A DNA stretch of 64,000 bases. It comes from Escherichia phage Murica. The notes under the pieces were generated by a model. It worked only from the letters and a program-made list of their open reading frames with translations, ran no database searches and was not told where the DNA came from. Location of the stretch: sequence record NC_041871.1; one strand, written 5' to 3'. Within the stretch, counting starts at the first letter, position 1; each line of letters opens with the position of its first letter. Shown here piece after piece: positions 6,326-49,895 of the stretch. The translations under genes and the position numbers were made by a program.

Positions 6326-6796
6326 ATGAAACTTGATAAAAATGTTCAACGAAAAGCTTTCTTGGATATGATCGCATATTCGGAAGGCACAGATAATGGT
6401 AGGCAACCCACTAAGGATCGTGGATACGATGTCATAGTTGGTGGCAAGCTGTTTAGCGATTACAGCAAGCATCCAGGTGTGTACGTTAAGCTAAATGCTA
6501 AACTTACCTCCTCCGCTGCTGGTCGTTACCAGGTTTTGGAGAAGTTTGCTAAACACTACATGGAACAGTTAGGATTGCCAGATTTTGGCCCTGCCAGTCA
6601 GGACAAGATTGCGTTGCAACTGATCCGTGAGTGCAAGGCTCTCGCCGACATTGACGAAGGGCGTATCCACGAGGCTATCCATAAATGCCGTTCCCGCTGG
6701 GCTTCGTTACCTGGTGCTGGATATGGTCAGCATGAACAGAAGATCGAGAAGTTGATCGAGGTGTTTAAAAAGGCAGGCGGTGTTGTCCTTGATTGA
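6326..6796 (+). CDS. endolysin, lambda R-type lytic transglycosylase
   Basis: Near full-length similarity to lambda R as recalled (QRKAFLDM.AySEGTDNGRQ, GYDVIVGG.LF.DYS.HP, GAGRYQ, WASLPGAGYGQ). Confidence 0.9.
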   Translation: MKLDKNVQRKAFLDMIAYSEGTDNGRQPTKDRGYDVIVGGKLFSDYSKHPGVYVKLNAKLTSSAAGRYQVLEKFAKHYMEQLGLPDFGPASQDKIALQLIRECKALADIDEGRIHEAIHKCRSRWASLPGAGYGQHEQKIEKLIEVFKKAGGVVLD

Positions 6797-27617: not shown

Positions 27618-27851
27618 ATGAAAGTTAAATTTCTTACAGATTTAGGGTACCCTTCCTTGGTTGACTGTGTTGGTAAAATTGTGGAAGCAAAACGGCTATC
27701 TGCAAACGAGAATGTTGTCCTGGTTAAAGGGAAGGATTTACTAGCTGCAGGTGCAGAGTCTGGCAGGATCTCTCCTGATTATATGTATTACCTATCTTTA
27801 AGTAATCTGCCAGAGCGAGGCGGTAAAGGCCTTGAAGTTGTGGAGGAGTGA
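27618..27851 (+). CDS. small acidic protein, MKVK paralog family
   Basis: MKVKFL...VGKIVEA...LVKGKDLLAAGAE...LEVVEE aligns with ORFs 31177 and 31394. Confidence 0.5.
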   Translation: MKVKFLTDLGYPSLVDCVGKIVEAKRLSANENVVLVKGKDLLAAGAESGRISPDYMYYLSLSNLPERGGKGLEVVEE

Positions 27852-28381
27852 CAGGTATGCTTCTGATTAACTGGGAAGACCTCTATGGGGACAAAGACCC
27901 TGTTGCGTTTGTTGATCGTAGGTGGAGATACACTGAAGAACAACTGGCGGCAAAAAATTTAACTGCAAAACGCAGAAAGATCATCCAGTGCAAGTACAAA
28001 TACGCACAGTTTGCTGCAAAAGTGTCTCCACAAATCGAGAGCTTTGTGCTTAAATTGTATGACGAGTACCTCAAATTCAAATTGGATTTTGTGCAGGTGT
28101 ACCGTGCACAGGTACGACCAGATACCAACATATGTAGATGGAAGGTTGTTTGTGAAGGTAAAGATTTGCCGCTCAGCTTGACAATTGAGTGGCGTTATGG
28201 GTATCATGAGTGTGGTCTGTATGATATTTGGGATGTCATTGTAGATCCTGCTAAGCATCTGAACACAGAGGAGCTGGAATATATCAATAAGGTTATTCTC
28301 GATATGTTTTTCAGCTACACACATGAAAACTCTGAGAAAGAACGGGATAATTTTCTTGACACCCTCAGCGACCATTTGTAG
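27848..28381 (+). CDS. hypothetical protein
   Basis: 177-aa ORF. Confidence 0.4.
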   Translation: MTGMLLINWEDLYGDKDPVAFVDRRWRYTEEQLAAKNLTAKRRKIIQCKYKYAQFAAKVSPQIESFVLKLYDEYLKFKLDFVQVYRAQVRPDTNICRWKVVCEGKDLPLSLTIEWRYGYHECGLYDIWDVIVDPAKHLNTEELEYINKVILDMFFSYTHENSEKERDNFLDTLSDHL

Positions 28382-28411
28382 TATACAATTTAACCTACAA
28401 AGGGAGGACCA

Positions 28412-28639
28412 ATGAGTATAAATGTTGTGCTAATAGGTTACCTGGTAATGTCCGTTATAACAGCGGTATTCTTGACAGGTGTATGCATCGTGTCCAGACG
28501 AAGGGTGAAGTTTGATGATTTTATCACCATCATCACTGCTGCACCTTTTTGGCCTGTTGTTATCTTCATCGTAATAATGTGCCTAGTTGATTACTACAAG
28601 AATATCAGGAAGGAGAGTAGGGATGGAGACCGCACCTAA
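28412..28639 (+). CDS. small membrane protein with two predicted TM helices
   Basis: Hydrophobic stretches VVLIGYLVMSVITAVFLTGVCIV and IITAAPFWPVVIFIVIMCLV, basic loop and C-terminus; holin-like topology but not next to the endolysin. Confidence 0.45.
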   Translation: MSINVVLIGYLVMSVITAVFLTGVCIVSRRRVKFDDFITIITAAPFWPVVIFIVIMCLVDYYKNIRKESRDGDRT

Positions 28640-28858
28640 AACTATCTATACTGTTCTTAAAGAGATTGCGTTCTACGCAGATCTTAGCCAGGCACCTTTA
28701 TGGGAAAAGAGCATGTATTTAAAATGGTGCGTTAATTTAGGGAGACCTTCCAGTGTTTCAAGCCATGTTTATTGAGATGCTATCTGGGATATTGTTACTA
28801 GTAGCCATCTTAGGTGGTGCAGTTCTGATGTATAACTATCTTGAAAAAGGAGACAGCA

Positions 28859-29044
28859 ATGGTAAAAAATAAATCTTTAGAGCAGGCTGAAAACCTTCTC
28901 CACGAGCTGGTAAAGGAGTGGAAAGTTGAATACTCAGATTTTAATGCACGAGAGGGTGAAGATTATTGGCCTACGGAGCGCTCAGAGGGCGAATGGTATC
29001 AAGATTTTATAGAGTGGTTATATCAGACGTGCGATGAGGGGTGA
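28859..29044 (+). CDS. hypothetical protein
   Basis: ATG 28859 after GGAGA; ORF-track start 28841 is TTG. Confidence 0.35.
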   Translation: MVKNKSLEQAENLLHELVKEWKVEYSDFNAREGEDYWPTERSEGEWYQDFIEWLYQTCDEG

Positions 29045-29511
29045 CGATGTTTGTTAAATATGTAAAAACGTGCCTCAACAGTCTTGGCAGAGAGCATTGG
29101 TACACCTTGCTTGAAAAAGGGGAAATTTTAACAAAATCTGGAAAGATAACTTTGATACCTCTTGATAGTAAAGGTAAAGACCCGTCACGACTTGTTATAG
29201 ATGATTACGTTACAGGTGTGACGTTCGAGGTCTCTGTGGAGAGGTTAATACGCAGAGCTGGCGGCCCTTATGACCGAAGAGAGTATGTTTTCGATTCCGT
29301 TACAGAGATGGGGGAGCATCCGTCTTTAATGTTCAGGATGGTAATCAGAGATATGAGGTCATCTATAGATAGGATCGTAAAGGACATTAAGGAACCTTTT
29401 AGAGTAAAAGTTAAGAAGTTTTTCGATTCTAAGATTAACATACTCGCCGTTGCACTAGGTGTAGTTCAACTTCTGTTAATTTTGCACTATTTTGAACTAC
29501 TATTTAAGTAG
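29041..29511 (+). CDS. hypothetical protein with C-terminal hydrophobic helix
   Basis: 156 aa; C-terminal ILAVALGVVQLLLILHYF. Confidence 0.4.
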   Translation: MTMFVKYVKTCLNSLGREHWYTLLEKGEILTKSGKITLIPLDSKGKDPSRLVIDDYVTGVTFEVSVERLIRRAGGPYDRREYVFDSVTEMGEHPSLMFRMVIRDMRSSIDRIVKDIKEPFRVKVKKFFDSKINILAVALGVVQLLLILHYFELLFK

Positions 29512-29521
29512 TAGTTGAGAT

Positions 29522-29542
29522 ATGGCACAAAGGATGTGCCAT
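29522..29542 (+). promoter_or_regulatory. palindromic operator-like site
   Basis: Perfect dyad ATGGCACA-AAGGA-TGTGCCAT; same architecture as the dyad at 22531-22546. Confidence 0.45.
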
Positions 29543-29573
29543 AGTGAAATAAACTAAGAAAGAGGTAGAGAGA

Positions 29574-29921
29574 ATGCCAAAGATTAAAACGTTATTACTG
29601 TGGGTAGCTGTTTTAGCTTTTATAGGGTACTGGACTTGGGAAACTGAATTAAAAGATATCGGATATACCAGTCTTGAGAGCAAGGCGTGCATTGGCATAA
29701 CCGATGCGTTCAGGCAAAATGCTATGGATCACGAATGTGTTGATGCAGATATAGATGAGAAACTGTCTAAGGACAAAGATTTTTACCATGGGCATGCTTT
29801 ACTTGATAGTGGTGACACTGTAGAGTTCTGGTCGTGGTTTCGTGAAGATGGAACAATAAAAACAGCAGTAAAGATCTCTAACAAAGAGTTAATGCTGTTG
29901 CAGCAAAAGGAGGCTCAATGA
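29574..29921 (+). CDS. hypothetical protein with N-terminal signal-anchor
   Basis: 115 aa; hydrophobic segment LLLWVAVLAFIGYW. Confidence 0.4.
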   Translation: MPKIKTLLLWVAVLAFIGYWTWETELKDIGYTSLESKACIGITDAFRQNAMDHECVDADIDEKLSKDKDFYHGHALLDSGDTVEFWSWFREDGTIKTAVKISNKELMLLQQKEAQ

Positions 29922-30205
29922 TCTGGATATCCTATGCTGATGGCACCATGCTGTATACTGCAGGTACCAGATATGAAGTTCAGGAGAACGATAAAAAATT
30001 TATCGTAAAAACATTTGACAAGGACGACAACCTTTTGCTAGAATTGACTTACAAAGTTGGAGAGGTATCCAATATCCAGTTGGATTGTGGTCATAAAGAT
30101 AATCCACTCAAAAAACCTGGAGTAGGTAAGGCTTCAGAAGAACGTCTGTCTCGTATTGCAGAAAGCGTTTCTCCCCAAAAATCTAAGAAGAGGACTAGAA
30201 AATGA
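29918..30205 (+). CDS. hypothetical protein
   Basis: 95-aa ORF with ATGA overlap. Confidence 0.4.
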   Translation: MIWISYADGTMLYTAGTRYEVQENDKKFIVKTFDKDDNLLLELTYKVGEVSNIQLDCGHKDNPLKKPGVGKASEERLSRIAESVSPQKSKKRTRK

Positions 30206-30396
30206 AAAACTTACGTTTTAACACTTATTACTACAACACATTGAATGATTTGTATTATATTGTTCGAAGTAAAAGTCCTGAAACAGTCCTATTCTGCCGC
30301 GAACCTTTCAAAGGGGAGGAAGTAGAGTCTGAGATGAATGTTAGCCAGATCACCTCTTTGTTGCTCTCAGGCGCAATGGAAGAAGCAATATTCTAA
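30202..30396 (+). CDS. hypothetical protein
   Basis: 64-aa ORF with ATGA overlap. Confidence 0.35.
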   Translation: MKNLRFNTYYYNTLNDLYYIVRSKSPETVLFCREPFKGEEVESEMNVSQITSLLLSGAMEEAIF

Positions 30397-30414
30397 ACCA
30401 GGCAGGAGGGTTTT

Positions 30415-30603
30415 ATGAAGCACTATTGCCTGTCTGGTAGAATGGGTGCAGATTGTGATTGGGTTTTCTTAAAACTTGTCAGCATTCGAGAGTTCATCCC
30501 AGAGGAAGAGCAAGAAAGCGAGCTGATGTCATGGATCAACCATTACGGTAACACTTTTCGGCATGTTAAGGTAGAAGAGTTGCCAAGCGAGGCTGAATTA
30601 TGA
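30415..30603 (+). CDS. hypothetical protein
   Basis: 62-aa ORF after AGGAGGG RBS. Confidence 0.4.
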   Translation: MKHYCLSGRMGADCDWVFLKLVSIREFIPEEEQESELMSWINHYGNTFRHVKVEELPSEAEL

Positions 30604-30896
30604 AACTTTTTGAGTGGTTTAAAAAGTTTAAATATAAAGCTGTAGCCATCGTGCCGTGGTCCATTCAGTGGGTTGATGAAGGTGGTCTACCGATACCTGG
30701 TGACAAAGATACTGGGTACTGGATTATGATGGAGAACGGGTTTGGAAAGCGAAAGTATACGTGCACAAACTCTACTCGATCTGCACTTAATAGAGTGCCC
30801 GGTTACAAACTTATGGTTGTGTGGAAAATGTCAGGCGTGCCTCCAGCCAATGCTCAATTTCTTACTGACAATCCGACCACGGTAGAGGGAGATTGA
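30600..30896 (+). CDS. hypothetical protein
   Basis: 98-aa ORF with ATGA overlap. Confidence 0.4.
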   Translation: MKLFEWFKKFKYKAVAIVPWSIQWVDEGGLPIPGDKDTGYWIMMENGFGKRKYTCTNSTRSALNRVPGYKLMVVWKMSGVPPANAQFLTDNPTTVEGD

Positions 30897-31180
30897 TAAT
30901 GAAAAAGATTAACAGTAGTGAAGTAGAGTTTAAACTTGTCGGAAAAGGCACTTACTGGGAAGTTCGTCAAAAGGTATATTTGTTCGGTCTTATTCCCTAC
31001 TGGTCTAAATTCTACTGGGGAGCTAACGAGTTGGGAAGATATGCCACCAAATCAATGGCACTTATTGGTATAGCAGAGTACATTGCAGCCCGAGACAGGG
31101 TTGGAACCACTTATTACTACACTGCTGACGATATTCGTAACAGTGTTTACGTCCCACAACCACCTGATGGAGACCGTTGA
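30893..31180 (+). CDS. hypothetical protein
   Basis: 95-aa ORF with overlapping start. Confidence 0.4.
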   Translation: MIMKKINSSEVEFKLVGKGTYWEVRQKVYLFGLIPYWSKFYWGANELGRYATKSMALIGIAEYIAARDRVGTTYYYTADDIRNSVYVPQPPDGDR

Positions 31181-31404
31181 TGAAAGTTAAAGTTTTAGAT
31201 TCAAGCTTCTATATTGGTCAGGAGCCTTTAGTAGGAAAAGTGTTTACTGCTGTCCCTAACGAAGATTACCCTGACCTTTTAAAAATAAAAGGAGCAGATC
31301 TTATTGCCGCTGGTGCATCTCAGGAATGCTTTGACAGTCAGTGGACCTATAACTTTGCCCTAGGTGAGGATGTAGAGGTAGTGGAGGACGATCATGAAGG
31401 TTAA
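31177..31404 (+). CDS. small acidic protein, MKVK paralog family
   Basis: MKVKVLDSSFYIGQ..VGKV..IKGADLIAAGA..VEVVED. Confidence 0.5.
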   Translation: MMKVKVLDSSFYIGQEPLVGKVFTAVPNEDYPDLLKIKGADLIAAGASQECFDSQWTYNFALGEDVEVVEDDHEG

Positions 31405-31648
31405 AATTCTTGATTCTAACGTCTACTTGGGGCAATCCTTCCTGAATGGAAAGGTCGTTCCTGCGGTATACTTTGAAGGGTTGCCGTGGGATGATCCTGT
31501 GCGGCAACATCACAATTATGTAGGCCACAACGTGGTGTTTATCTTGGGATCAGACCTGATCACCGCTGGTGCACCTGAATATTATTTCGGGGAAGAGTCC
31601 TACTATGCCTTTGGGGTAGGGTCAGATGCAGATATTGTAGAGCTGTGA
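31394..31648 (+). CDS. small acidic protein, MKVK paralog family
   Basis: MKVKILDSNVYLGQ..NGKV..GSDLITAGA..DIVEL. Confidence 0.5.
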   Translation: MKVKILDSNVYLGQSFLNGKVVPAVYFEGLPWDDPVRQHHNYVGHNVVFILGSDLITAGAPEYYFGEESYYAFGVGSDADIVEL

Positions 31649-31660
31649 TGGGTAACCGTT

Positions 31661-32059
31661 GTGAAAAATAAACTGTTTAAAGTTACAATGAAAATTCGCG
31701 GGGCTTGGAGCGTAAAGCAAGGGCGTATTCCAGAATTTGAGAAAGACTTCTACGTAGTCTCCACCTCTGAGGAGGCTGCATGCTGGCAGGCTGGCTATGC
31801 CTATGCAAGAACCTGGTACGAAGGATACCAGACTGGGGGCTATGACGGAGAAATTATCAGCAAGGGTGTAGAAGAAATTAATGTGTTGACAAGTGAAAAA
31901 GTTTTTGTTATAGTGCATCCAGATTCCAGAGTGAAGCATTACTGGAATGCCAGAACAAAAACTTGGACACCGTTTGCAGATTCTGCTACGCCACTTTTAA
32001 ACCAGAAAGCTCTTGACTCTGCCCCAAGTTATGGGGTTGTTGAAGAAAAGCTAAACTGA
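31661..32059 (+). CDS. hypothetical protein, paralog of ORF 33870
   Basis: Shares KVFVIVHPDSRVKHYWNARTKTWTP with KFVMRHPHSNIAYYWDVLNNEWTP of ORF 33870. Confidence 0.5.
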   Translation: MKNKLFKVTMKIRGAWSVKQGRIPEFEKDFYVVSTSEEAACWQAGYAYARTWYEGYQTGGYDGEIISKGVEEINVLTSEKVFVIVHPDSRVKHYWNARTKTWTPFADSATPLLNQKALDSAPSYGVVEEKLN

Positions 32060-32076
32060 AACAGTGAGGTGTCACC

Positions 32077-32367
32077 ATGATGGATTTAATTCTAAATATT
32101 GATAACGCAGGAGAGTTTAAAGACGATGGTGTAACAAGCATGGACAAACCCTGCTCTGCTAAGGTTGACTCAAAATGGACCTACAAGTTTGACGGAGAGA
32201 TCTTCGCAAATGATGAGAAGGTTGTAGATGCTGCAGCCATTTTAAACGCTCTAGGGTACGACCCTGTGAATTCTTTGATCAAGGATCCTGTTGAGTTTGC
32301 AGAGTATGTTCGAAAAATGGCAGATCTTGCTGTGGATATTTTAAAAACTATCGACAACAAGCTGTAA
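32077..32367 (+). CDS. hypothetical protein
   Basis: 96-aa acidic ORF. Confidence 0.4.
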   Translation: MMDLILNIDNAGEFKDDGVTSMDKPCSAKVDSKWTYKFDGEIFANDEKVVDAAAILNALGYDPVNSLIKDPVEFAEYVRKMADLAVDILKTIDNKL

Positions 32368-32373
32368 AAACTG

Positions 32374-32402
32374 TTGACACAACGCTTCAGATTTAGTATC
32401 AT
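32374..32402 (+). promoter_or_regulatory. sigma70-type promoter TTGACA-17-TATCAT
   Basis: Consensus -35 with 17-nt spacer upstream of ORF 32452. Confidence 0.55.
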
Positions 32403-32451
32403 TGTTTTCAAAGAGAGATAGTTATTCCCTCTTCCTTAAAAGGAACACGTT

Positions 32452-32751
32452 ATGCAAATTGAAATCACTGGCAACAATGTAGAAATCACAGAAGGTATGG
32501 TATCTTTTATTTCCCGCAAAATGTCCAAGCTGGAGCGTTTACATCCCTCTGTTAACTATGCACGTGTGAGTGTAAAAGTTGAAAATGATCACCAGGAAGT
32601 TATGGCGTTCATTTTTGACAATTCTGGAAAAGAAGTTATTGCCAAGGCTAAAGGCAGTGATGCTTACGAGGCAACTGACCGTATGGTAGATGTTGCAGCA
32701 CGTCAGCTGGCTAAATGCGGTGGAAAGAAAGGTAAGGGGAAGGCAAAGTAA
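32452..32751 (+). CDS. small protein, possible MK-I/V-E paralog
   Basis: MQIEITGNNVEIT N-terminus; glycine/lysine-rich C-terminus. Confidence 0.4.
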   Translation: MQIEITGNNVEITEGMVSFISRKMSKLERLHPSVNYARVSVKVENDHQEVMAFIFDNSGKEVIAKAKGSDAYEATDRMVDVAARQLAKCGGKKGKGKAK

Positions 32752-32780
32752 AGATTGACTTTGGAGAATGAGGTGCTACA

Positions 32781-32882
32781 ATGGGTGTGATTAAGAAATT
32801 AGTCCCAAATGTAGAGATTGCATGCTTTGAAATTATGTTTGCAATCGCAGTTGTAGTTAATGTGTTAGGTTACGGCTATTAA
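32781..32882 (+). CDS. small hydrophobic peptide (33 aa)
   Basis: ATG 32781 after GGAG..GAGG; single TM-like segment; below ORF-track cutoff. Confidence 0.3.
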   Translation: MGVIKKLVPNVEIACFEIMFAIAVVVNVLGYGY

Positions 32883-32908
32883 TATCAAATAATTGAGGAG
32901 ACCTCTAA

Positions 32909-33178
32909 ATGAAAATTAAATTATTCCAAACTGAGCTGGCAGACAAAAATTGTGGACTGGTTGAAGGCATGATTGTTGAAGCACAACCAGTGGACTATAT
33001 GAAGGTGGTTCGTGATGCCCTAGGTGAAGGTTTTGATCTGATGGAGCCAGCTCTGCGAGAAGATGTTATCGAGATGGCTAAAAAGCACACACCTGAAGGT
33101 TTGGTGGTGTTTGTTGCACCGGGTAACGGAGAAGAGTTGATTGTAACTCCTGATGTGTATGAGATTGTAGAGGAATAA
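32909..33178 (+). CDS. small acidic protein, MK-I/V-K paralog family
   Basis: MKIKLFQTEL...EIVEE. Confidence 0.45.
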   Translation: MKIKLFQTELADKNCGLVEGMIVEAQPVDYMKVVRDALGEGFDLMEPALREDVIEMAKKHTPEGLVVFVAPGNGEELIVTPDVYEIVEE

Positions 33179-33197
33179 TCCTGCTTGGATTAGCATA

Positions 33198-33228
33198 CTT
33201 CCTCGCTAAGGAAGATTTGTAATTATTT
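33198..33228 (+). terminator. intrinsic terminator-like hairpin
   Basis: CTTCCT-cgcta-AGGAAG followed by ATTTGTAATTATTTG. Confidence 0.5.
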
Positions 33229-33269
33229 GTGGGAAAGGAGTCCCAATCTCTTACCAGAGGTGATACTAT

Positions 33270-33533
33270 ATGATTGTTTATTTTAAAACTTCAGGTGGAT
33301 ACCCTGATTCTCAAAGCTTGATCGGAAAAACGTGCACAGCATACTCACCTCTTGATGAGGAGGTAAGCGATATTTTACGAAATATGTATCGGATTGACCC
33401 CCAAGAAGCCTTTGATCAAAACCTTGTATTTGTCAAGGGCTCAGATATGAAGTCTTTGGGAGCATTCCCTGAAGCAGATGATGATGCCGTTTATTCGTTC
33501 ATGACTCCTTTTGAAGCTATGGTTGTTGGGTGA
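33270..33533 (+). CDS. small acidic protein, paralog family member
   Basis: GYPDSQSLIGKT...VFVKGSDMKSLGA aligns with the MKVK family core. Confidence 0.45.
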   Translation: MIVYFKTSGGYPDSQSLIGKTCTAYSPLDEEVSDILRNMYRIDPQEAFDQNLVFVKGSDMKSLGAFPEADDDAVYSFMTPFEAMVVG

Positions 33534-33537
33534 TAAT

Positions 33538-33870
33538 ATGAAAGTACGCTTTATTGGTGAAACAATTCCTGTGCATCTCCGGTCGCCTGAGGATTCTGCA
33601 GATCTTGCATCTCAAAAGGCGAGAGGTTATGATAAGAAAGTAACCTCAACCGATGTAGTGCTTGAGGCTACTAGTCTACCTGACCCTGCTGCATTCTTTA
33701 ATCATTATGGGTACTATTTCAGCAATCTGATGAATATCGGTGAGCTTGTGTTTATTAGTGGTGGAGAAATTGTTAGCAAGCTTGGCGGCGATCCGGATAT
33801 CTTTCATGAAACCTGTCCTTTTGCATTTGTGGTAGGTTCAGATGTGGAAGTTATTGAGGAGGTGCGGTAA
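33538..33870 (+). CDS. small acidic protein, MKVR paralog family
   Basis: Start moved to ATG 33538 (MKVRFIGE); ends VGSDVEVIEEVR. Confidence 0.45.
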   Translation: MKVRFIGETIPVHLRSPEDSADLASQKARGYDKKVTSTDVVLEATSLPDPAAFFNHYGYYFSNLMNIGELVFISGGEIVSKLGGDPDIFHETCPFAFVVGSDVEVIEEVR

Positions 33871-34265
33871 TGGTAAGCCTATACCGTGTTGAGTATAGCT
33901 CAGATACTGTATACAACGTAAGAAGCAAAGATCGCAGCGACAGAGTGCAAGAAATGTATGTTCTTGCCGACAGTCCGTTATCTGCAGCGTTCAAGGCAGG
34001 GGCTCTTGCATCTCGTTGGAAATTTGAAGGTGGATCTTTCTATGAAGAAACCCTTGAAGATTCTGTTGTTATTTCTTCTGTAGAGGTTTCAGATGACTAC
34101 GAAGGGAAAAAGTTCGTAATGCGGCACCCACACAGCAACATTGCGTACTACTGGGATGTTCTGAACAACGAGTGGACCCCAGATCTTCAGAAGGCTACTG
34201 TGCTAACACCGTTTTTGGCAGATAAGTTCCCACCAGAAGGTAATTTATCCGCACTGTTTCAGTAA
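33870..34265 (+). CDS. hypothetical protein, paralog of ORF 31661
   Basis: Shared HP-S..YW...WTP core with ORF 31661. Confidence 0.5.
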   Translation: MVSLYRVEYSSDTVYNVRSKDRSDRVQEMYVLADSPLSAAFKAGALASRWKFEGGSFYEETLEDSVVISSVEVSDDYEGKKFVMRHPHSNIAYYWDVLNNEWTPDLQKATVLTPFLADKFPPEGNLSALFQ

Positions 34266-34273
34266 TTTTCTTG

Positions 34274-34311
34274 CACACAGGTGTTGACAACGCCAACCCT
34301 GTGTGAAATAA
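34274..34311 (+). promoter_or_regulatory. promoter with -35 hexamer in a hairpin loop
   Basis: Inverted repeat CACACAGG-N16-CCTGTGTG encloses TTGACA (34283-34288); AATAAT 17 nt downstream. Confidence 0.45.
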
Positions 34312-34341
34312 TACCTTCATCTTAACAAGACAGGGGACCGA

Positions 34342-34602
34342 TTGATGAAGATTAAATTGAAAAACCTTGAAACGGCAGAGATTCAGGACGGTGTTGATTT
34401 CCGTTCTAAAGATGGTGACATCTTAGAGGTAAATATTCCAACCTACGAGCTGATTAAAGGTTTTGGCAACGTTCCGGAAGAGGATATTACAGAAATTCTT
34501 ATGATGTTGATTCTTGACGGAACTGTGTTTGTAGGTGAAGGTGAGAACGCTATTGCAATCCCAGGCCATTTTTATGAAGTAGTTGACGAAGAGGTGCTGT
34601 AA
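34342..34602 (+). CDS. small acidic protein, MK-I/V-K paralog family
   Basis: MMKIKLKNLE...YEVVDEEVL. Confidence 0.45.
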   Translation: MMKIKLKNLETAEIQDGVDFRSKDGDILEVNIPTYELIKGFGNVPEEDITEILMMLILDGTVFVGEGENAIAIPGHFYEVVDEEVL

Positions 34603-34953
34603 ATGAAAGTAGAAATTACCGGTTTTGATGTGAATGTGGTTCCGGAAGATATTTTAGCTAAACTTCCAGAAGGTTTTGGTAACGGCGTTGTGGTGGATGC
34701 TGTTCCTCCTACCAAAGACATTCTGCTGCAGTATGGTGTAGCAGAGGAAGATGTCGATAAAGTTCTTACAATGATGGCAATCGATCGTGTTGTCGTTGTT
34801 AAAGGTCTCGATAATTTTGAGAGTGATCCCCTGATTATTCGTGGAGATGACTACAAAATCATCGATAATGAAGGCCAAGAGTTCTATGAACCTTGTGCAG
34901 AAGATATTCTTAACTTATTACTGGAAGCAGGTACCGAAGAGGAGGACGAATAA
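34603..34953 (+). CDS. small acidic protein, MKVE paralog family (probable)
   Basis: MKVEITGFDVNVV; acidic C-terminus. Confidence 0.45.
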   Translation: MKVEITGFDVNVVPEDILAKLPEGFGNGVVVDAVPPTKDILLQYGVAEEDVDKVLTMMAIDRVVVVKGLDNFESDPLIIRGDDYKIIDNEGQEFYEPCAEDILNLLLEAGTEEEDE

Positions 34954-35282
34954 TGAAGATTGACCCGTTACTGAAGGCTCGTGCAGAAAAAGCGTACACC
35001 ATTAAGCTGACCAACCTGGTTCCTACTTGTCATCCAGATGTAGGTTGGCCTGAAGGTCTGGTAGAGGGGACTGTAACAGCTGCATACCTCCCTAACATCA
35101 AATACCTTATGGAAATCTTGGAGCTGGATGAGGAAACGGCAGAAGAGTTCCAGTTGGACATGAAACAAAGTGGGACTCTGGTTATTCACGGGTGGTATAA
35201 TACTAAAGACGCAGAAGACCCTCTTGTAACTTCTAATCTGGCATATGAAATCTTAGGACCTTTGAACCTGGGGGAAGACTAA
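34953..35282 (+). CDS. small acidic protein
   Basis: 109-aa ORF with ATGA overlap; N-terminus MKIDPL. Confidence 0.4.
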   Translation: MKIDPLLKARAEKAYTIKLTNLVPTCHPDVGWPEGLVEGTVTAAYLPNIKYLMEILELDEETAEEFQLDMKQSGTLVIHGWYNTKDAEDPLVTSNLAYEILGPLNLGED

Positions 35283-35569
35283 TGAAAGATCTGGTTAAGA
35301 TTAAGATTAAAGATACCAACGGCGAACTCAGCCATTTTGGAATTAATGATGGTGACGAGCTGATCGCACACCTGCCTACCAAGGAAGTTGTAAGCAAAGC
35401 AGTTGCCGGAGAAGAAGATGCAATGCAGGCTGCAGGTGTGGATGAAAACTATGTAGCCATGTGCATGTGCCGAGACCAGGTTGTTCTGTATAAAGCGTAT
35501 CGACCAAACGGAGCCACGGAGTGGCTTGTATTCCGACCCGAAGGATATGAAATCTTAGAGGCACTATGA
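35282..35569 (+). CDS. small acidic protein
   Basis: 95-aa ORF with ATGA overlap. Confidence 0.4.
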   Translation: MKDLVKIKIKDTNGELSHFGINDGDELIAHLPTKEVVSKAVAGEEDAMQAAGVDENYVAMCMCRDQVVLYKAYRPNGATEWLVFRPEGYEILEAL

Positions 35570-35649
35570 TAAATCTTGCCAAGGTTGCAACGGCACTGTT
35601 AATTATTTGCTGGTCAGTAACCTTAACACTGTGTCTTGTATTTCAGTAA
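35566..35649 (+). CDS. small hydrophobic peptide (27 aa)
   Basis: ATG overlaps upstream stop; MINLAKVATALLIICWSVTLTLCLVFQ; below ORF-track cutoff. Confidence 0.3.
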   Translation: MINLAKVATALLIICWSVTLTLCLVFQ

Positions 35650-35658
35650 GGTGCTTAT

Positions 35659-35922
35659 ATGAACATCCTGATGTGGGTTGTAGCAGTGGCGTTTGTTGCA
35701 TGTTTTTGCTGCTGGGTTGCGGTGAGGATTTCTGTAGCTACCCTTCGGAAGTTGGGGTTCTCAGAGTGGGATATTAATATCCTTTCTTTTCGCAATGAAA
35801 CAATCTCAGCCGCCCTGCTCTGTAAGAAATTCAAGTGGGAACCTTGCGAGGTCATGAACTATCTAAGAACGGGAGATATCCCTGAAAGATTTAAAAAAGT
35901 TCTTGACGACAAGGATAAATGA
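35659..35922 (+). CDS. small membrane protein
   Basis: 87 aa; N-terminal TM segment ILMWVVAVAFVACFCCWVAV. Confidence 0.4.
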   Translation: MNILMWVVAVAFVACFCCWVAVRISVATLRKLGFSEWDINILSFRNETISAALLCKKFKWEPCEVMNYLRTGDIPERFKKVLDDKDK

Positions 35923-36077
35923 TAGTATAGTGACTAACAAGAGGTGAGGAATGACTGATTTTACTGAAGCTTTAATGATGGCCTTGTCTGTTTTAGCGCT
36001 ATCGGTGTGTTTTGGGGCGTTATTCACATCTCTGGTTAAAGTTTTACATACAGTATTATTACCCAAGGAGCGCAGTA

Positions 36078-36329
36078 ATGACGAAGATTGACTTAAATGC
36101 TGGAGACCATGTTGTTGTCAAATGCATCGGAGATTATCTTGGATTCACAATCGGCAATACTTACGAGGCGGTAGTGGCGAAGGTTTACCATGATAAAGTC
36201 CTCAGTCTTGTATTTGACTGCGATGATGATGGGGATGACCGATACGTCTGTGAGGTGCTGGCACGAGACGATAGTGAAGACCAGAAATTCCTGGTTATTG
36301 AACTGAACGGTATTTTTGTAGAACGTTAA
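36078..36329 (+). CDS. small acidic protein
   Basis: ATG 36078 after AAGGAG; ORF-track start 36012 has no RBS. Confidence 0.4.
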   Translation: MTKIDLNAGDHVVVKCIGDYLGFTIGNTYEAVVAKVYHDKVLSLVFDCDDDGDDRYVCEVLARDDSEDQKFLVIELNGIFVER

Positions 36330-36357
36330 TTTAAAACAACATAAGGAGACTCTTACT

Positions 36358-36663
36358 ATGGCTAAATCTAAAGTTGAACTGTTCACCTCTCTTCCTTCTG
36401 ACACTGCAGAGCGTGATCGCCTTCGCAAAACAATCGAAGAACTGGTAGAACTCCAACTTCAGATTAAAGATCTGAAAGATGCCATTAAGGATATCATTCT
36501 CGTTGAGAAGCAGGATCACCTGTATTCTCCTAAATTCATCAAATCTCTGGTGGCTACCGAGTTCGATATTCGCTATGAGGCTGAAAAACGTCGCGCTAAA
36601 ATCGAAGAAGAGGTTGAGCACATGTCTGAGGCAGACATTCTGTTCAAACGCTCTGTAGAATAA
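36358..36663 (+). CDS. coiled-coil protein
   Basis: 101 aa, charged heptad-like pattern; strong AAGGAGA RBS and terminator immediately downstream. Confidence 0.5.
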   Translation: MAKSKVELFTSLPSDTAERDRLRKTIEELVELQLQIKDLKDAIKDIILVEKQDHLYSPKFIKSLVATEFDIRYEAEKRRAKIEEEVEHMSEADILFKRSVE

Positions 36664-36672
36664 TGACAAAGA

Positions 36673-36697
36673 GAGGGGCTTGGGCCCCTCTTTTTAC
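36673..36697 (+). terminator. intrinsic terminator
   Basis: GAGGGGC-ttgg-GCCCCTC followed by TTTTTACT. Confidence 0.8.
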
Positions 36698-36718
36698 TAT
36701 CTATGAAGGAGATTTGAG

Positions 36719-37045
36719 ATGGGTATACCAATCACTGTAAAAGAATTGAATGAGCGTGATGCAGGCGGTCTATGGCCTGCACGAAAAATCCGCTGCGTCT
36801 ATATGAAAGAGAATCTTGAACATCTTGATCAACAGATCAAGGTCGGTGATATTTTTGAGGTCTTCTATTCCAATCGTCGTAACTGGGAAACCATTCAACC
36901 TTCTGGTTTTGTTCTTGCCAAACTTGACACTGGAGAAGTGATTATCCCTGGGTTGGATATTGTCTTCGAAATTATCCAGGAGTGGGATCCGGATAAGATT
37001 AGATACGAAGAGTTATTCGGTAAAGGTATTATCAAACCTGTGTGA
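36719..37045 (+). CDS. hypothetical protein
   Basis: 108-aa ORF. Confidence 0.4.
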   Translation: MGIPITVKELNERDAGGLWPARKIRCVYMKENLEHLDQQIKVGDIFEVFYSNRRNWETIQPSGFVLAKLDTGEVIIPGLDIVFEIIQEWDPDKIRYEELFGKGIIKPV

Positions 37046-37353
37046 GGTGGATTATGTCTACAAAGGCGGCTAAATACTCCTACATGCCATCAACCTCTGC
37101 AGAGGTAGACTTTAGTTTCGATGTGTTTCCACTGTTTGAGGTGGTTCTGGCATACCCAACAATACTATCTACTCCTGAATCACTTGTACCTGTTAAGTTG
37201 CAGAACGCTATGCATTCTATGCACTACAACAATAAATGTAGGCACAGATGGTGTCAGGACGAGGAAAAAGATTTGGATAGTTTGAGGGATTTTGACAGTC
37301 ACCTTTTGACACCTTTCAGCTACTCCAACCTTGATAAGCCCTCATGGGTATAG
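37042..37353 (+). CDS. hypothetical protein
   Basis: 103-aa ORF with overlapping start. Confidence 0.4.
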   Translation: MRWIMSTKAAKYSYMPSTSAEVDFSFDVFPLFEVVLAYPTILSTPESLVPVKLQNAMHSMHYNNKCRHRWCQDEEKDLDSLRDFDSHLLTPFSYSNLDKPSWV

Positions 37354-37377
37354 CAAAATATCAAATTTAAGACACCT

Positions 37378-37405
37378 AGGACGCTCTGTGGCGTCCTTTT
37401 CTTTA
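37378..37405 (+). terminator. intrinsic terminator
   Basis: AGGACGC-tctgtg-GCGTCCT followed by TTTCTTTATCT. Confidence 0.75.
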
Positions 37406-37566
37406 TCTGGTGCACGATTGCATACCTTGGACAGATAATCTCGTTACAGAGCGTTTAAGAGCTTTCTACAAACAAGTCTCTCTTTCGAGCGTAGCGAGAA
37501 CGCACGTCCGTTTTGACCAAAATCACCATACGCTCGGATTTTAACCAAACCCTCGCGGCGTTGCTG

Positions 37567-37595
37567 TTGACACATTACCGCTCCCGTGATAGTAT
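37567..37595 (+). promoter_or_regulatory. sigma70-type promoter TTGACA-17-TAGTAT
   Basis: Consensus -35 with 17-nt spacer upstream of the small ORF at 37616. Confidence 0.55.
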
Positions 37596-37615
37596 CCACA
37601 CACAGTTTGGAGAAT

Positions 37616-37717
37616 ATGGAATACACAATGAGAACATTGTCTGAAGTTTTAGTGGTGATCCTGATGATCATTACTTCCATAGCGGCTGTTGCCGGAATAC
37701 TCACGGGTGGAACATGA
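37616..37717 (+). CDS. small hydrophobic peptide (about 30 aa)
   Basis: Single TM-like segment LVVILMIITSIAAVAGIL; stop overlaps ATG of ORF 37714; start ambiguous (37616 or 37628). Confidence 0.3.
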   Translation: MEYTMRTLSEVLVVILMIITSIAAVAGILTGGT

Positions 37718-37926
37718 TCAACACACATGCACCTGAAGAGACATCCAAAGGAGTGACCATATGTCCCTTGGCTGAGCCAGTTAGAGAGGAAAACTTAGAT
37801 TCTGAGGACTCTTCATCTTCGTCCCAGACAGATCCTGAGGCTGATGACCTGACGTGGGAGGACATCGTAGATATCTGGTTCTCTATTATGCCTGAGCACG
37901 AAGAGTTCAGAGGTGGTAGACTATGA
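37714..37926 (+). CDS. small acidic protein
   Basis: 70 aa, serine/acidic-rich. Confidence 0.4.
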   Translation: MINTHAPEETSKGVTICPLAEPVREENLDSEDSSSSSQTDPEADDLTWEDIVDIWFSIMPEHEEFRGGRL

Positions 37927-38262: not shown

Positions 38263-39739
38263 CACACAATTAGCTGCCCGGCTAAAGTGCTGGAGCACCT
38301 ACAATACATCTTTCAACTAAATTTCCCACCACCACAATCACTTACCTTCCACACATGACTGTTTGCTTGTTTAGTGAGCAGTCATGCCTTGACATTCTTG
38401 CCTATCCTGATAAAATTAAGTTCTTCTCTTTTCTTTTACCGAGTAATTCGGGTTTTCTGTTCTCTTCGGTTTGAAGGGGTATGGAGATACACCTGAGTGA
38501 ACATGGTGAACAACCGAACATTTGGCTATGGCATTAGCATGGCGAAGCGGACGGGTGACGAAAGAGGGGCCGGAGGACACCAGTCACTGCCATATGATAT
38601 ATGGGTGATAACCTGAAGAGTCTGAATAAGTGTTTAAGTACCAGTCAGAGGAAAAGGTGAATGGTAGCCGAAGGGGGAGGGGGGTTTCTTGTATCTTTAA
38701 TTTGTATATTATGTATACACTCGTAAACCAATCTCATCTGAATCTGTTTACCACACAAAGTAGATAGGGACAAATATCACCTATTAAACTTGAATTATTT
38801 ATAGAAAATACCACAACACCACTTAAGTCTTTGATTTTACACACAAATCCTACAGATATTCAACCTCTATATTTAACATATTCATAACATATTCCATACT
38901 CTACCTGTCTGATCAATTTACCCAACCACATCCTCCATATTTTCCCTGTCTGTACCACCCCTGCCCCGCCGGGAGTCCCGTCATATCTGGCTTTCCAGCA
39001 AATATCACACCCACAAATATCATTGCCTGAAGAGGGTTTCATCCCATAGTACATGCCTTACCTGAAGAGCGCTTCATACACCACGTAAATTTTTTAATTT
39101 ACCCCCCCTCCCCGCCGCCGGAGTGGTCGGCTTTTCCCACACAGGCCTGAAGAGTCAGCCAGAAATATCTGAACAGGTCCAGTTATACCACGATTTTGAC
39201 CTGACCGACAGGAGTGCTGCCAGGCGGACGGAATGGGAATACTTCTCATTCTTATAATAATTCTCAAATATCGAGGCAGTGAGGCAAATTAATAGGTGAG
39301 GCCGTTCACACAGTGGCACAACATTTGCAATCTATTTTGTGAGGGTGAATGAGAATACCTATCATTGTGAGAACTGTTATCATTACGGGCAATTTAACAT
39401 AATACCCATTATGCGCACCACTGGCGATCCATACAGGGATTGATAACATGAGTTACAGTTTACGCATATAACAATCATATTTCTTACTATTTGTGTGGGA
39501 TATAGTTAGCAGCCGATAGATTAGATATTGACCTGTGGACTTCCAACCGTCTAGACGTCTAAACGCCCACACAACAAGGATTATACATACATTACTGAAT
39601 GTAAACAGGGCCGCAAAAATGCTACCATACCAGATTGTAAATTTTTCATGCAGCACTTGACAAAGAGGAGAAAAACTTGTCTGACACAATATGACATACT
39701 GGGCACATTAAACACACTTTAGACTTAATTGACATGCCT

Positions 39740-39862
39740 GACTGTTTACGCTGTCACTATTCACGCTATTACTATTCACTCCCTTTACTGTTCACGCTCT
39801 TACTGTTTACATGCTTAATGGTTTACATGACCAATAGTTTACATAGCTAACTATTTACATGG
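39740..39862. repeat. array of eight tandem 15-17-bp iterons
   Basis: Head-to-tail units ending TT(T/C)AC(G/A/T) with 15-16-bp period (e.g. ctgtcactattcacg, ctattactattcact, ctcttactgtttacatg, ccaatagtttacatag). Confidence 0.75.
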
Positions 39863-39871
39863 AAATGATAA

Positions 39872-40153
39872 GCCATGCCATTCGTTTGCATGATAACTAT
39901 TAGCAAGTTAATAATCTTTCGCTGGCTATGCCAGGTGACCTTTGGTCACCCCTTCGGGTGTTTCTATGACATAATATAAAAGCAGGGCAACTATTAGAAG
40001 ATCTATAGTTGCCTTGCTTGTTATGTCATGATTAACTAAATACAAGGCAACTATGATCTGATTAATAGTTTGCAAACAAACTATCACGGGGGGTGATGGT
40101 TACTGCTTTTATATTATGTCGCGACTCCGTCGCGCCATGCCATTCGTTTGCAT
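39872..40153. repeat. 262-bp dyad-rich element bounded by exact 20-bp direct repeats
   Basis: GCCATGCCATTCGTTTGCAT at 39872-39891 and 40134-40153; internal inverted repeats GGTGACC-ttt-GGTCACC, GGCAACTAT..ATAGTTGCC, GACATAATATAAAAGCA / TGCTTTTATATTATGTC. Confidence 0.75.
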
Positions 40154-40765
40154 AGTTGCCTTATTGTTACAGATAAAATAATTGTATTGTTAATTATTTC
40201 TTATCTTTCTCTTAGTCATCTAATGATTCCAGTCAGTATAGTAATGTACAGTAAACATTAGACGACTAAAGATTTATATGCTTATAATAACTTACAGTGA
40301 CAATTTCGGACTGTTTACGAAAAATGTTGACACCTGAGCCGATTTATGTTATGCAGTTTACACGAATAATTATTTTATGCAGGTATTGACTATTCCGTTA
40401 TTCTATGGTCGGAATAAATACTTAGCAGTCTATAGAATGGTGACGCTACGTGAATTCTGGAATTTAGTGGCTATAGTTATACCCGATTTTTCACGTAGAA
40501 CACGCTTTTGTGGTTATGTAAGTGTATGACTTATAAAGATTTTTAGTTGTTGACAAGACACTGAAGATATGCATCAGGTTAAATTTTGTGCAATAGCTGC
40601 ATTACGTGCAATTTTGGAAGGAAAAACGTGTAAAAATGGCCCTGCTACCACACAATGAAAGATTATGCAATAGCTATTTTATATGTATGTTTGTACAGTG
40701 TGTGGGATTGATGGCTAGTCAATTATTCCACTTGCCAGGTGGGGACGTTTGTGGTAGGAGAAATA

Positions 40766-40798: not shown

Positions 40799-40816
40799 GA
40801 TAGTTTAGTTAAGAAA

Positions 40817-43310: not shown

Positions 43311-43501
43311 TTGCCAACCTCACCCGATACCGTTGGAAGACAAGATCATATTAGACATGGTTGCAATCAGGCCAATACCCAGGGCAATAATCAAGATCGC
43401 TGCATCGATTAATTTCTGTTTCATGGTGTTTATTCTCTTCTGTTAGTAACCTTATTCATGGGGCCGCTACCACAGCCCCAGGGTAAGGCGGCTATGTGCT
43501 T

Positions 43502-45632: not shown

Positions 45633-45634
45633 TT

Positions 45635-45978: not shown

Positions 45979-46098
45979 TTATCAGTTACTTACAGCGATA
46001 AAATACATCCCTACGCCTAACAATATTTCAAGGGCGATGATCTCAAGCCATACCATAGCACGGCGCGCCTTATCGGTGCGGGGCTTATCCTTGGTTGT
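45979..46098 (-). CDS. small hydrophobic peptide (39 aa)
   Basis: ATG after GGGAGGGGG; single TM-like segment; followed by hairpin GGCCCCC-atcat-GGGGGCC; below ORF-track cutoff. Confidence 0.3.
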
Positions 46099-46121
46099 CA
46101 TCGTCTCCCCCTTCCCTCCTG

Positions 46122-49775: not shown

Positions 49776-49895
49776 TTAAAAGTTTAAGAAAAATTTTGCG
49801 ACACTGTTGGCGCTACCCATCAACATTTGCGCCAGGATGTAACCAATGATGCAAACGATAATAGTTACCTTTGTGTGCTGGCGTGTAGTACTCAT
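49776..49895 (-). CDS. small hydrophobic peptide (39 aa)
   Basis: ATG 49893-49895 after AAAGGGGGC; TM-like segment; stop abuts the -35 of the next promoter; below ORF-track cutoff. Confidence 0.35.
   Translation of the reverse strand: MSTTRQHTKVTIIVCIIGYILAQMLMGSANSVAKFFLNF

What the first reader, a model, noticed from the sequence alone, without database searches (positions are those of the whole stretch)
28412..37717. Several very small hydrophobic peptides interleaved with the acidic paralogs
Short TM-like ORFs with RBS or start-stop overlaps occur at 28412-28639, 32781-32882, 35566-35649 and 37616-37717, with similar ones on the minus strand (45979-46098, 49776-49895). All but the first are below the 60-aa ORF cutoff. 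Such peptides often act as membrane-targeted effectors such as holins, antiholins or superinfection-exclusion factors.
Basis: partly seen in the sequence, partly recalled or inferred. Interest (0 to 1): 0.4.

Follow-up and report, generated by a model that had tools for sequence, protein, structure and literature searches.

The report
Tiny membrane-protein genes in rV5-like phage
The short hydrophobic reading frames are real, and most are conserved genes for very small membrane proteins of an rV5-like E. coli phage; most were already listed as "membrane protein" in 2013, none has a known function, and nothing found here shows that they are holins.

Summary
The window comes from an rV5-like Vequintavirus. 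Four more of the same kind sit among them (28753-28872, 35659-35922, 35951-36091, 43320-43424).

Comparison with 13-16 relatives, including three divergent lineages, gives a protein-coding substitution pattern for A, B, E, F, G and H. The pattern is moderate for D and I, and absent for C. C's last 72 nt are invariant at the nucleotide level, and a conserved promoter overlaps its start codon.

Most are already public. rV5 Table S3 (2013) lists gp129 "putative holin" (A) and gp131, gp145, gp156, gp181 and gp193 "membrane protein".

Two points are new:
- D (35566-35649, 27 codons) is encoded in all 116 Vequintavirus records but is annotated nowhere.
- G, rather than the 101-138-aa ORF that several records annotate across it, is the conserved frame.

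The peptides match no holin, toxin or defence family and are not paralogs of one another. They lie 22 kb or more from the soluble endolysin. A, F and G have conserved sigma-70 promoters directly upstream.

Best reading: early-expressed accessory inner-membrane proteins, not a lysis cassette. The finding is ordinary and of low interest.

The parts
28412..28639 (+). A: 75-aa protein with two TM segments and a charged C-tail; ortholog of rV5 gp129 'putative holin'
   Evidence: syn/nonsyn p = 1e-5; homologs only on Vequintavirus-size contigs; loop and TMD2, KFDDFITIITAAPFWPVV..MCLVD, nearly invariant; remote homologs keep the same synteny, never beside a lysin; rV5 Table S3.
28753..28872 (+). B: 39-aa single-TM protein (GTG start; ATG in some relatives); = rV5 gp131 'membrane protein'.
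   Evidence: 24 syn: 8 nonsyn, p = 2.5e-10; 37-aa ortholog in divergent contig L029; phrog_15251.
32781..32882 (+). C: 33-codon hydrophobic ORF after the HPF gene; = rV5 gp145 'membrane protein'. Coding status ambiguous
   Evidence: p = 0.09; frames not discriminated; 1 synonymous difference where about 8 are expected versus L005, p = 1.4e-4; promoter -10 overlaps its ATG.
32755..32782 (+). P_C: sigma-70 promoter TTGACT-16-TACAAT with extended -10; predicted start near 32789, inside C
   Evidence: -35 invariant; -10 becomes TATAAT in L021 and L005 while the spacer varies.
32811..32912 (+). Nucleotide-invariant block covering C's last 24 codons and the leader of gene 32909-33178
   Evidence: at least 96/100 identity to L005, whose overall identity is 84.8%; no significant RNA fold; no Rfam match.
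35566..35649 (+). D: 27-codon single-TM ORF; start overlaps the upstream stop (ATGA) and it ends 9 nt before E. Annotated nowhere
   Evidence: 11 syn: 9 nonsyn, 0 stops, p = 0.004; 27 codons and NTGA overlap in three lineages; neutral simulation open and as hydrophobic 0.23%; 116/116 records; not annotated; not in the protein collection; no PHROG.
35659..35922 (+). E: 87-aa protein with an N-terminal TM and a helical C-terminal domain; = rV5 gp155
   Evidence: p = 2e-17; Vequintavirus only; all-helical model, pLDDT 62.5.
35951..36091 (+). F: 46-aa single-TM protein, acidic N-terminus and charged C-tail; = rV5 gp156 'membrane protein'.
   Evidence: p = 1e-4; phrog_16755.
35903..35931 (+). P_F: sigma-70 promoter TTGACG-17-TATAGT inside the 3' end of E, upstream of F
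   Evidence: hexamers kept in all lineages; spacer variable.
37616..37717 (+). G: 33-aa single-TM protein; stop overlaps the start of the acidic 70-aa gene 37714-37926 (ATGA)
   Evidence: p = 2e-4; overlapping frame n.s.; G present in 16/16 relatives, C-terminally truncated in one; the long overlapping ORF is open in about half; phrog_34195; deposited for BASEL phages, JES2013, SYGMH1.
37567..37595 (+). P_G: sigma-70 promoter TTGACA-17-TAGTAT with extended -10; starts the G transcription unit
   Evidence: -35 invariant, -10 kept or improved, spacer variable in all lineages.
37378..37397 (+). Intrinsic terminator after gene 37042-37353, ending the preceding unit
   Evidence: ORFs in 37354-37600 show no coding signature.
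28356..28384 (+). P_A: sigma-70 promoter TTGACA-17-TAGTAT directly upstream of A
   Evidence: -35 invariant in the relatives that could be aligned.
45982..46101 (-). H: 39-aa protein with a basic N-tail and C-terminal TM; = rV5 gp181; overlaps the upstream TM gene 46085-46270 by 17 nt and is followed by a GC hairpin
   Evidence: p = 2e-4; phrog_13629.
49776..49895 (-). I: 39-aa single-TM protein; = rV5 gp193; preceded by a copy of the repeated hairpin/promoter element; absent in some relatives
   Evidence: absent in L022 and L006; p = 0.005; phrog_16391.
43320..43424 (-). J: 34-aa single-TM ORF, shorter counterpart of rV5 gp173 'membrane protein'
   Evidence: phrog_14631; too few variants to test.
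6326..6796 (+). Context: the endolysin (= rV5 gp89), soluble, no N-terminal TM/SAR; 22 kb upstream of A
   Evidence: rV5 gp89, PF00959 per the paper; sequence; Pfam gave no hit at E <= 0.001 here, so the assignment rests on the paper and a motif I recall.

Best explanation
**What they are.** These are genuine, independently evolved genes for very small inner-membrane proteins. There are about ten in the window, of 27-87 aa, mostly one TM helix with almost no soluble part. They belong to the two clusters of small accessory genes of an rV5-like Vequintavirus.

**Shown here.**
- They are conserved as ORFs, and most have a protein-coding substitution pattern.
- They are embedded in operons by RBS or by start-stop overlap with neighbouring acidic proteins.
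- A, F and G sit directly behind conserved sigma-70-type promoters.
- They are restricted to Vequintavirus and its close relatives, and they are not paralogs of each other.

**Inferred.**
- They are made early, by host RNA polymerase.
- They insert into the inner membrane. C, D, G, H, I and J would be N-in with the TM at or close to the C-terminus; B, E and F would be N-out/C-in.
- They act as other proteins under 50 aa do, by binding a larger host or phage membrane protein. That would mean host-envelope takeover or exclusion of competing phages, not forming the lysis hole.

**Exceptions.**
- A (two TM) remains the only holin-like candidate, and a weak one.
- C may be a conserved 5' leader or promoter region rather than a peptide gene.
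For: - **Identity of the genome:**
- **ORF integrity and peptide conservation:** 13-16 relatives.
- **Codon-pattern test with off-frame and antisense controls:**
- **D:** deep conservation in three lineages plus neutral simulation; present in 116/116 records.
- **B:** ortholog in a more divergent contig.
- **G:** present in all relatives while the overlapping frame is not.
- **Promoters:** hexamers conserved with variable spacers; no late-type motif upstream.
- **Endolysin:** distant and soluble.
- **No family membership:**
- **Not paralogs; topologies differ:**
- **Accessory nature:** I is absent and G truncated in some genomes, and rV5 gp170 appears to have no counterpart in this window (compare).
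- **Precedent (my own knowledge, not tested):** proteins under 50 aa with one TM usually act by binding larger membrane proteins, for example MgrB-PhoQ, AcrZ-AcrB, SgrT-PtsG and phage M LysM-MurJ.
Against: - There is no expression, localisation or phenotype data for any of these peptides.
- Timing is inferred only from promoter sequence, and the rV5 paper notes sigma-70-like promoters all over the genome (PMC3606486).
- The holin of rV5-like phages is still unidentified (PMC6658697), so one of these genes could be it.
- C lacks a coding signature.
- The evidence for D and I is only moderate (p about 0.004-0.005, few variable sites).
- The mechanistic part, binding a larger membrane protein, rests on analogy alone.
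Confidence: 0.55

Rival explanations
1. Lysis-timing proteins. One or more of the peptides is the missing holin, pinholin or antiholin of rV5-like phages. It would accumulate in the inner membrane and trigger, or delay, hole formation for the soluble endolysin.
For: - The holin of rV5-like phages is not identified (PMC6658697), and related genera also lack a clear one.
- A has two TM segments and a Lys/Arg-rich tail, and was proposed as the holin in PMC3606486.
- Lysis genes are scattered in this group: the spanins lie beside TerL and the lysin is elsewhere.
- The endolysin is soluble, so a canonical holin is required.
Against: - No match to any holin family.
- A is never adjacent to a lysin, even in divergent syntenic relatives.
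- A has a conserved sigma-70 promoter immediately upstream and no late motif, and it has no dual-start motif.
- The basic loop RRRVK suggests the loop is cytoplasmic, that is an N-out/C-out topology, unlike class II holins.
- CPT annotators left the ortholog as hypothetical.
- The 27-46-aa peptides are, by my recollection, smaller than characterised holins, and some are dispensable.
Confidence: 0.13
2. Not functional peptides. Some of the frames exist for nucleotide-level or translational reasons. C would be a conserved promoter and 5' leader of the next operon. D would be a relay ORF that merely couples translation of E to the upstream gene.
For: - **C:** no coding signature. Its last 72 nt are invariant although about 8 synonymous differences are expected against L005. 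The conserved promoter P_C has its -10 over C's ATG, so P_C transcripts would start inside C. CPT and ECP32 annotators did not call it.
- **D:** it is exactly bracketed by the upstream stop and E's RBS. Its sequence evolves fast (50% nucleotide identity and pN/pS 0.6 against L005).
Against: - **C:** it has a strong, well-spaced RBS and can still be translated from the HPF read-through transcript. The leader shows no significant RNA structure (z = 0.02) and no Rfam match.
- **D:** hydrophobicity and the exact 27-codon length are retained through near-saturating divergence (0.23% of neutral simulations). A pure relay ORF has no reason to stay hydrophobic. Its in-frame syn/nonsyn excess gives p = 0.004.
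Confidence: 0.15
3. Chance ORFs. T-rich frames between real genes give hydrophobic short ORFs that mean nothing.
For: TM-like short ORFs are frequent by chance: 39 of 576 in this window. Each ORF is short, so an open frame is weak evidence on its own.
Against: - Enrichment in coding-strand gaps (p = 7e-6).
- Frame-specific synonymous excess.
- Conservation across lineages with 50-85% nucleotide identity.
- RBS and start-stop coupling.
Confidence: 0.03

Closest known systems
rV5 gp129, gp131, gp145, gp156, gp181 and gp193 (Kropinski et al. 2013, Virol J 10:76, Table S3) and their orthologs in about 116 Vequintavirus genomes; PHROGs 10061, 15251, 15151, 16755, 34195, 13629, 16391
   Same: They are the same genes: orthologous position, length and sequence. 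They were already labelled 'putative holin' (gp129) or 'membrane protein, 1 TMD'.
   Different: D (35566-35649) is not in that list, nor in any annotation checked. G is not in rV5, LL12, A51.2 or HMD-6, which annotate an overlapping 101-138-aa frame that is neither conserved nor coding-like.
Class II holins / pinholins (for example phage 21 S68; candidate CB7_82 in Certrevirus)
   Same: A has two TM segments, 75-78 aa and a charged C-terminal tail.
   Different: No sequence family match, not beside a lysin, no dual start, a sigma-70 promoter directly upstream, and a basic loop that suggests the opposite topology. The other peptides have one TM and are only 27-46 aa.
T4 early membrane proteins Imm and Sp (superinfection exclusion) and Ac (from memory)
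   Same: Small membrane proteins encoded among early accessory genes of a large virulent myovirus.
   Different: Imm and Sp are 83 and 97 aa. There is no sequence similarity, and no exclusion phenotype is known for rV5-like phages.
Bacterial and ssRNA-phage micro-membrane proteins that bind larger membrane proteins (MgrB, AcrZ, SgrT, KdpF; phage M LysM, 37 aa, inhibitor of MurJ) (from memory)
   Same: Size (27-46 aa), a single TM helix with minimal tails, and fast sequence evolution with hydrophobicity retained.
   Different: No homology, and no partner protein is known. This is a functional analogy only.
Type I toxins (Hok, TisB, Ibs, Ldr and others)
   Same: Small hydrophobic single-TM peptides.
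   Different: No NCBIfam or Pfam match. There is no antisense RNA gene arrangement; the peptides sit inside sense operons with translational coupling.

Membership tests
Holin (any class) | At least one TM domain and a small size (by my recollection about 60-150 aa) | tested here: inconclusive
   A: two TM, 75-78 aa, so met. B, C, D, F, G, H and I have one TM but only 27-46 aa, below the size of holins I know of. The size range is from memory.
Holin (any class) | Hydrophilic, highly charged (basic) C-terminal cytoplasmic tail | tested here: inconclusive
   A: tail DYYKNIRKE(KKE)SRDGDRT, charged but near neutral (+5/-4 here). B and F have short mixed-charge tails. C, D, G and H end at or within one residue of the TM helix, so not met.
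Holin (any class) | Gene in or next to the lysis cassette (endolysin/spanins) | tested here: not met
   The endolysin is at 6326-6796, 22 kb or more from every candidate. The gene beside A that BASEL labels 'putative glycosidase' has no supporting Pfam, PDB or PHROG hit. Divergent syntenic loci also lack a lysin next to A. This is not decisive, because T4 t is also separate from e.
Holin (any class) | Sequence membership in a described holin family | tested here: not met
   No Phage_holin or other holin hit in Pfam (E <= 1) or NCBIfam (E <= 1); the PHROG families are all 'unknown function'.
Holin (any class) | Late expression and lethal, timed hole formation | not testable with these tools
   Indirect only: conserved sigma-70 promoters lie directly upstream of A, F and G, and no late-type motif does. 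Needs time-resolved RNA-seq and induction or complementation assays.
Superinfection-exclusion proteins (T4 Imm/Sp type) | Early-expressed inner-membrane protein that blocks DNA entry of a second phage | not testable with these tools
   Membrane character and inferred early promoters are compatible. There is no sequence similarity to any named family. The phenotype was not tested.
Type I toxin / small membrane toxin | Family match, plus a cis-encoded antisense RNA or a stand-alone locus | tested here: not met
   No NCBIfam, Pfam or Rfam match. The genes are translationally coupled inside sense operons.
Conserved protein-coding small ORF | ORF intact across relatives, with a synonymous excess specific to its frame | tested here: met
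   Met for A, B, E, F, G and H (p <= 2e-4) and for D and I (p about 0.004-0.005). Not met for C (p = 0.09). Untestable for J.

The most novel reading that the evidence does not exclude
The battery of about ten unrelated micro-membrane proteins would be a set of early phage effectors. It includes the never-annotated 27-aa D, which is translationally coupled to an acidic paralog. Each effector would bind and switch off a different host inner-membrane machine, or would tether its acidic neighbour to the membrane. Alternatively, one of them (most plausibly A) is the long-missing holin of Vequintavirus, belonging to a new holin family.
Probability: 0.12. Interest if true: 0.55.

Novelty: already known. 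Interest (0 to 1): 0.22.

Why it matters
Small membrane proteins are among the least understood phage gene products, and rV5-like phages are used for typing and therapy of E. coli O157, so their unknown early genes are of practical interest. For this finding the gain is mostly in annotation quality:
- One conserved 27-codon gene (D) is missed in every deposited Vequintavirus genome.
- One widely copied 101-138-aa ORF, annotated across G, is probably wrong.
- One annotated "membrane protein" (C) may instead be a regulatory leader.

The finding opens no new biological question beyond the known one of where the holin of this phage group is.

Tried and rejected
- **IMG/VR scans for relatives:** only three useful contigs, so I used GenBank records instead.
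- **The 'putative glycosidase' next to A as a possible lysin partner:** no support in Pfam, PDB or PHROGs.
- **Remote homology for A with a 16-sequence profile against 1.84 billion proteins:** only three further small two-TM proteins, all in syntenic Vequintavirinae-like contigs and none beside a lysin.
- **Homologs of E:** Vequintavirus only.
- **Klebsiella Mydovirus locus sharing gene 36358-36663:** no synteny and no equivalent peptides.
- **Rfam over the whole window and an RNA fold of C's conserved block:** nothing.
- **tRNA scan:** none.
- **AlphaFold model of E:** low confidence (pLDDT 62.5), so no fold search was run.
- **Paralogy among the peptides:** rejected; best z about 4 among 55 compositionally biased pairs.
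- **Late-promoter motifs near the genes:** none.
- **Literature searches on small phage membrane proteins, superinfection exclusion and Vequintavirus transcriptomes:** nothing specific.
- **First calibration script:** timed out and was rerun.

Full report
**Source and context.** Window 28000-38000 matches 120 phage records at 90-99.5% identity, all of them Vequintavirus (rV5-like E. coli myoviruses of about 137 kb). At the DNA level the region is conserved only inside this genus. Genes run on the + strand up to about 38.3 kb. An ORF-free stretch follows, and then a cluster of small genes on the minus strand. [quoted passage not shown]

**Observation.** They have ATG starts, RBS or 4-nt start-stop overlaps, and hydrophobic cores well above the classical TM threshold. 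Of the two minus-strand ORFs, 49776-49895 is correct and 45979-46098 should read 45982-46101. The list was incomplete. 28753-28872 (39 aa), 35659-35922 (87 aa), 35951-36091 (46 aa) and 43320-43424(-) (34 aa) are the same kind of gene. I call the ten ORFs A to J in the order given in the parts list.

**Chance.** TM-like short ORFs are not rare by chance: 39 of the 576 ORFs of 25-60 aa in the window qualify. They are enriched among ORFs that fit the gaps between coding-strand genes, 16/77 against 23/499 (Fisher p = 7e-6).

**Conservation.**
- I collected 13-16 relatives spanning 99% down to about 50-85% local identity. They include three divergent lineages: IMG/VR contig L005/L007, Logan contig L034, and L029/L032 for the A-B neighbourhood.
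- Every ORF is intact in nearly all relatives. The exceptions are a frameshift of A in one unverified assembly, an ATA start for C in one, a truncated G in ECP32, and I missing in ECP32 and in an IMG/VR contig.
- Classifying each variable column as synonymous or nonsynonymous, against a neutral expectation of about 0.22, gives in-frame p-values of A 1e-5, B 2.5e-10, C 0.09, D 0.004, E 2e-17, F 1e-4, G 2e-4, H 2e-4 and I 0.005.
- The other two frames of each ORF, antisense ORFs and neighbouring dubious ORFs are not significant in their own frame. Three accepted neighbouring genes give p-values from 6e-4 to 7e-29.
- Neighbouring genes give pS 0.50 against L005 and about 0.30 against L021-23, with pN 0.03-0.07.

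**D (35566-35649).**
- It is full length in 116 of 116 Vequintavirus records.
- It is always 27 codons in three lineages, and its start always overlaps the upstream stop (ATGA or GTGA). The peptides are MINLAKVATALLIICWSVTLTLCLVFQ, MMNIAKVATALFIICWVVTSILCLIFH and MMNMSKVVTAALVITIISTVLLCVFGH.
- Window and L005 share only 50% nucleotide identity here. In neutral simulations with the same number of changes, the frame stays open and as hydrophobic in 0.23% of trials.
- It is not annotated in any of ten annotation sets, has no PHROG, and its exact sequence is absent from the 15-billion-protein collection. At 27 codons it probably falls below the minimum gene length that gene callers accept.

**G (37616-37717).**
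- rV5 (gp162), LL12, A51.2 and HMD-6 annotate a 101-138-aa ORF in another frame across this position.
- That frame is open in only about half of the relatives. It is closed in the window and shows no coding signature.
- G is present in all 16 relatives, C-terminally truncated in ECP32, and in most of them it ends in ATGA on the start of the conserved 70-aa acidic gene.
- G has its own promoter and follows a terminator.

**C (32781-32882).**
- Its first 10 codons vary, with nonsynonymous changes. Its last 72 nt, plus about 30 nt downstream, are nucleotide-invariant in all relatives. Against L005 there is 1 change where about 8 synonymous differences are expected (p = 1.4e-4).
- A conserved extended -10 promoter (TTGACT-16-TACAAT, TATAAT in L005 and L021) places its -10 over C's ATG, so its transcripts would begin inside C.
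- An intact ORF is therefore no evidence of coding here. C may be a leader or regulatory region, a peptide gene, or both.
- The block has no significant predicted RNA structure and no Rfam match.
- Such highly conserved blocks make up about 7% of 100-nt windows against L005, so this one is unusual but not unique.

**What is already known.**
- rV5 Table S3 lists gp129 "putative holin, 2 TMD" (A), gp131 (B), gp145 (C), gp156 (F), gp181 (H) and gp193 (I) as "membrane protein, 1 TMD".
- The paper's text argues that gp129 is the holin because it alone has two TMDs and a basic tail.
- All except D fall in small PHROG families of unknown function, and G, C, F, H and I are deposited as hypothetical proteins.
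[quoted passage not shown] Related genera report the same difficulty.

**Function.**
- No peptide matches Pfam, NCBIfam, PADLOC or a PHROG with a known function.
- They are not paralogs of each other, and their predicted topologies differ.
- A's family occurs only in Vequintavirus-like genomes. Its loop and TMD2 are nearly invariant, and its remote relatives keep the PhoH-ClpP-...-A-B synteny with no lysin nearby.
- The endolysin (6326-6796) is soluble and lies 22 kb upstream of A.
- The -35 and -10 hexamers of sigma-70 promoters directly upstream of A, F and G, and overlapping C's start, are conserved while their spacers vary. No T4-late-like motif lies near these genes.
- Some of the genes are dispensable in nature.
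- Together this favours early-expressed accessory inner-membrane proteins over a lysis cassette. The step from there to [quoted passage not shown] is inference by analogy.

**Verdict.** The holin idea applies at most to A, is already published, and gains no support here. Most of the finding is already annotated. The new points are the missed gene D, the corrected frame at G, and the ambiguity of C.

Noticed in passing
window 38300-40800: The ORF-free region between the + and - small-gene clusters is the most conserved part of the window against divergent relatives. Blocks with at least 96/100 identity lie at 38409-39019, 39389-39689 and 40049-40419, where overall identity to L005 is 84.8%. It has no tRNA and no Rfam family. 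It could hold an origin, structured RNAs or regulatory DNA.
   Followed up: partly
window 45573-45635, 49295-49366, 49916-49988 (minus strand): A 45-60-nt intergenic element occurs three times. Its core, TTTATTTTTAGATGGCCTTGACTCCAGGGCCATCAATAAAGTAAA, forms a strong hairpin (MFE -31.2 kcal/mol, z = -3.8) with a TTGACT -35-like hexamer in the loop. From memory it resembles the promoter-early stem-loop cassettes of T4-type phages. One copy lies directly upstream of small ORF I.
   Followed up: partly
window 32811-32912: A nucleotide-invariant block downstream of promoter P_C covers the 3' two-thirds of ORF C and the leader of gene 32909-33178. The constraint exceeds what protein coding explains, and its cause is unknown.
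   Followed up: partly
window 37513-37926 and 37410-37544: The 101-138-aa ORF annotated in rV5 (gp162), LL12, A51.2 and HMD-6, and the 44-aa ORF annotated in BASEL phages (bas58_0138), show no coding signature. The stretch 37354-37600 looks non-coding and holds a terminator at 37378-37397 and a promoter at 37567-37595.
   Followed up: yes
window 27848-28381: The 177-aa protein labelled 'putative glycosidase' in BASEL records has no Pfam or PDB match, and its only PHROG hit is a family of unknown function. The label appears unsupported.
   Followed up: yes
window 6860-7066: The 68-aa gene just after the endolysin begins with a signal-peptide or lipoprotein-like segment (MKDFLLAILFMAACLACGVVFAG...). 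It is a small exported protein next to the lysin with no family match.
   Followed up: no
whole window versus GenBank MG0656xx records: The closest record (99.5%) is 'Campylobacter phage C12', and 18 'Campylobacter phage' records match. The ones fetched are flagged UNVERIFIED, carry no annotation and are classified as Vequintavirus. The host labels look wrong, since these are E. coli rV5-like phages.
   Followed up: no
window 46085-46270(-) and 46321-46725(-): H is the last gene of a run of three membrane-protein genes: 134 aa with TM, 61 aa with TM, then H at 39 aa. The last two overlap by 17 nt, and a GC-rich hairpin follows the run.
   Followed up: no
window 28623-28775: The small ORF between A and B (rV5 gp130, 50 aa; listed here from its TTG start at 28587) shows a modest coding signature (p = 0.006). 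It overlaps both neighbours, so A, gp130, B and gp132 form a chain of overlapping genes.
   Followed up: partly
window 29041-29511, 30415-30603, 34953-35282: According to rV5 Table S3, gp133 (with one TMD), gp137 and gp152 (an acidic paralog) from this cluster of early-looking genes were detected in virions by mass spectrometry. That is unexpected for host-takeover genes.
   Followed up: no
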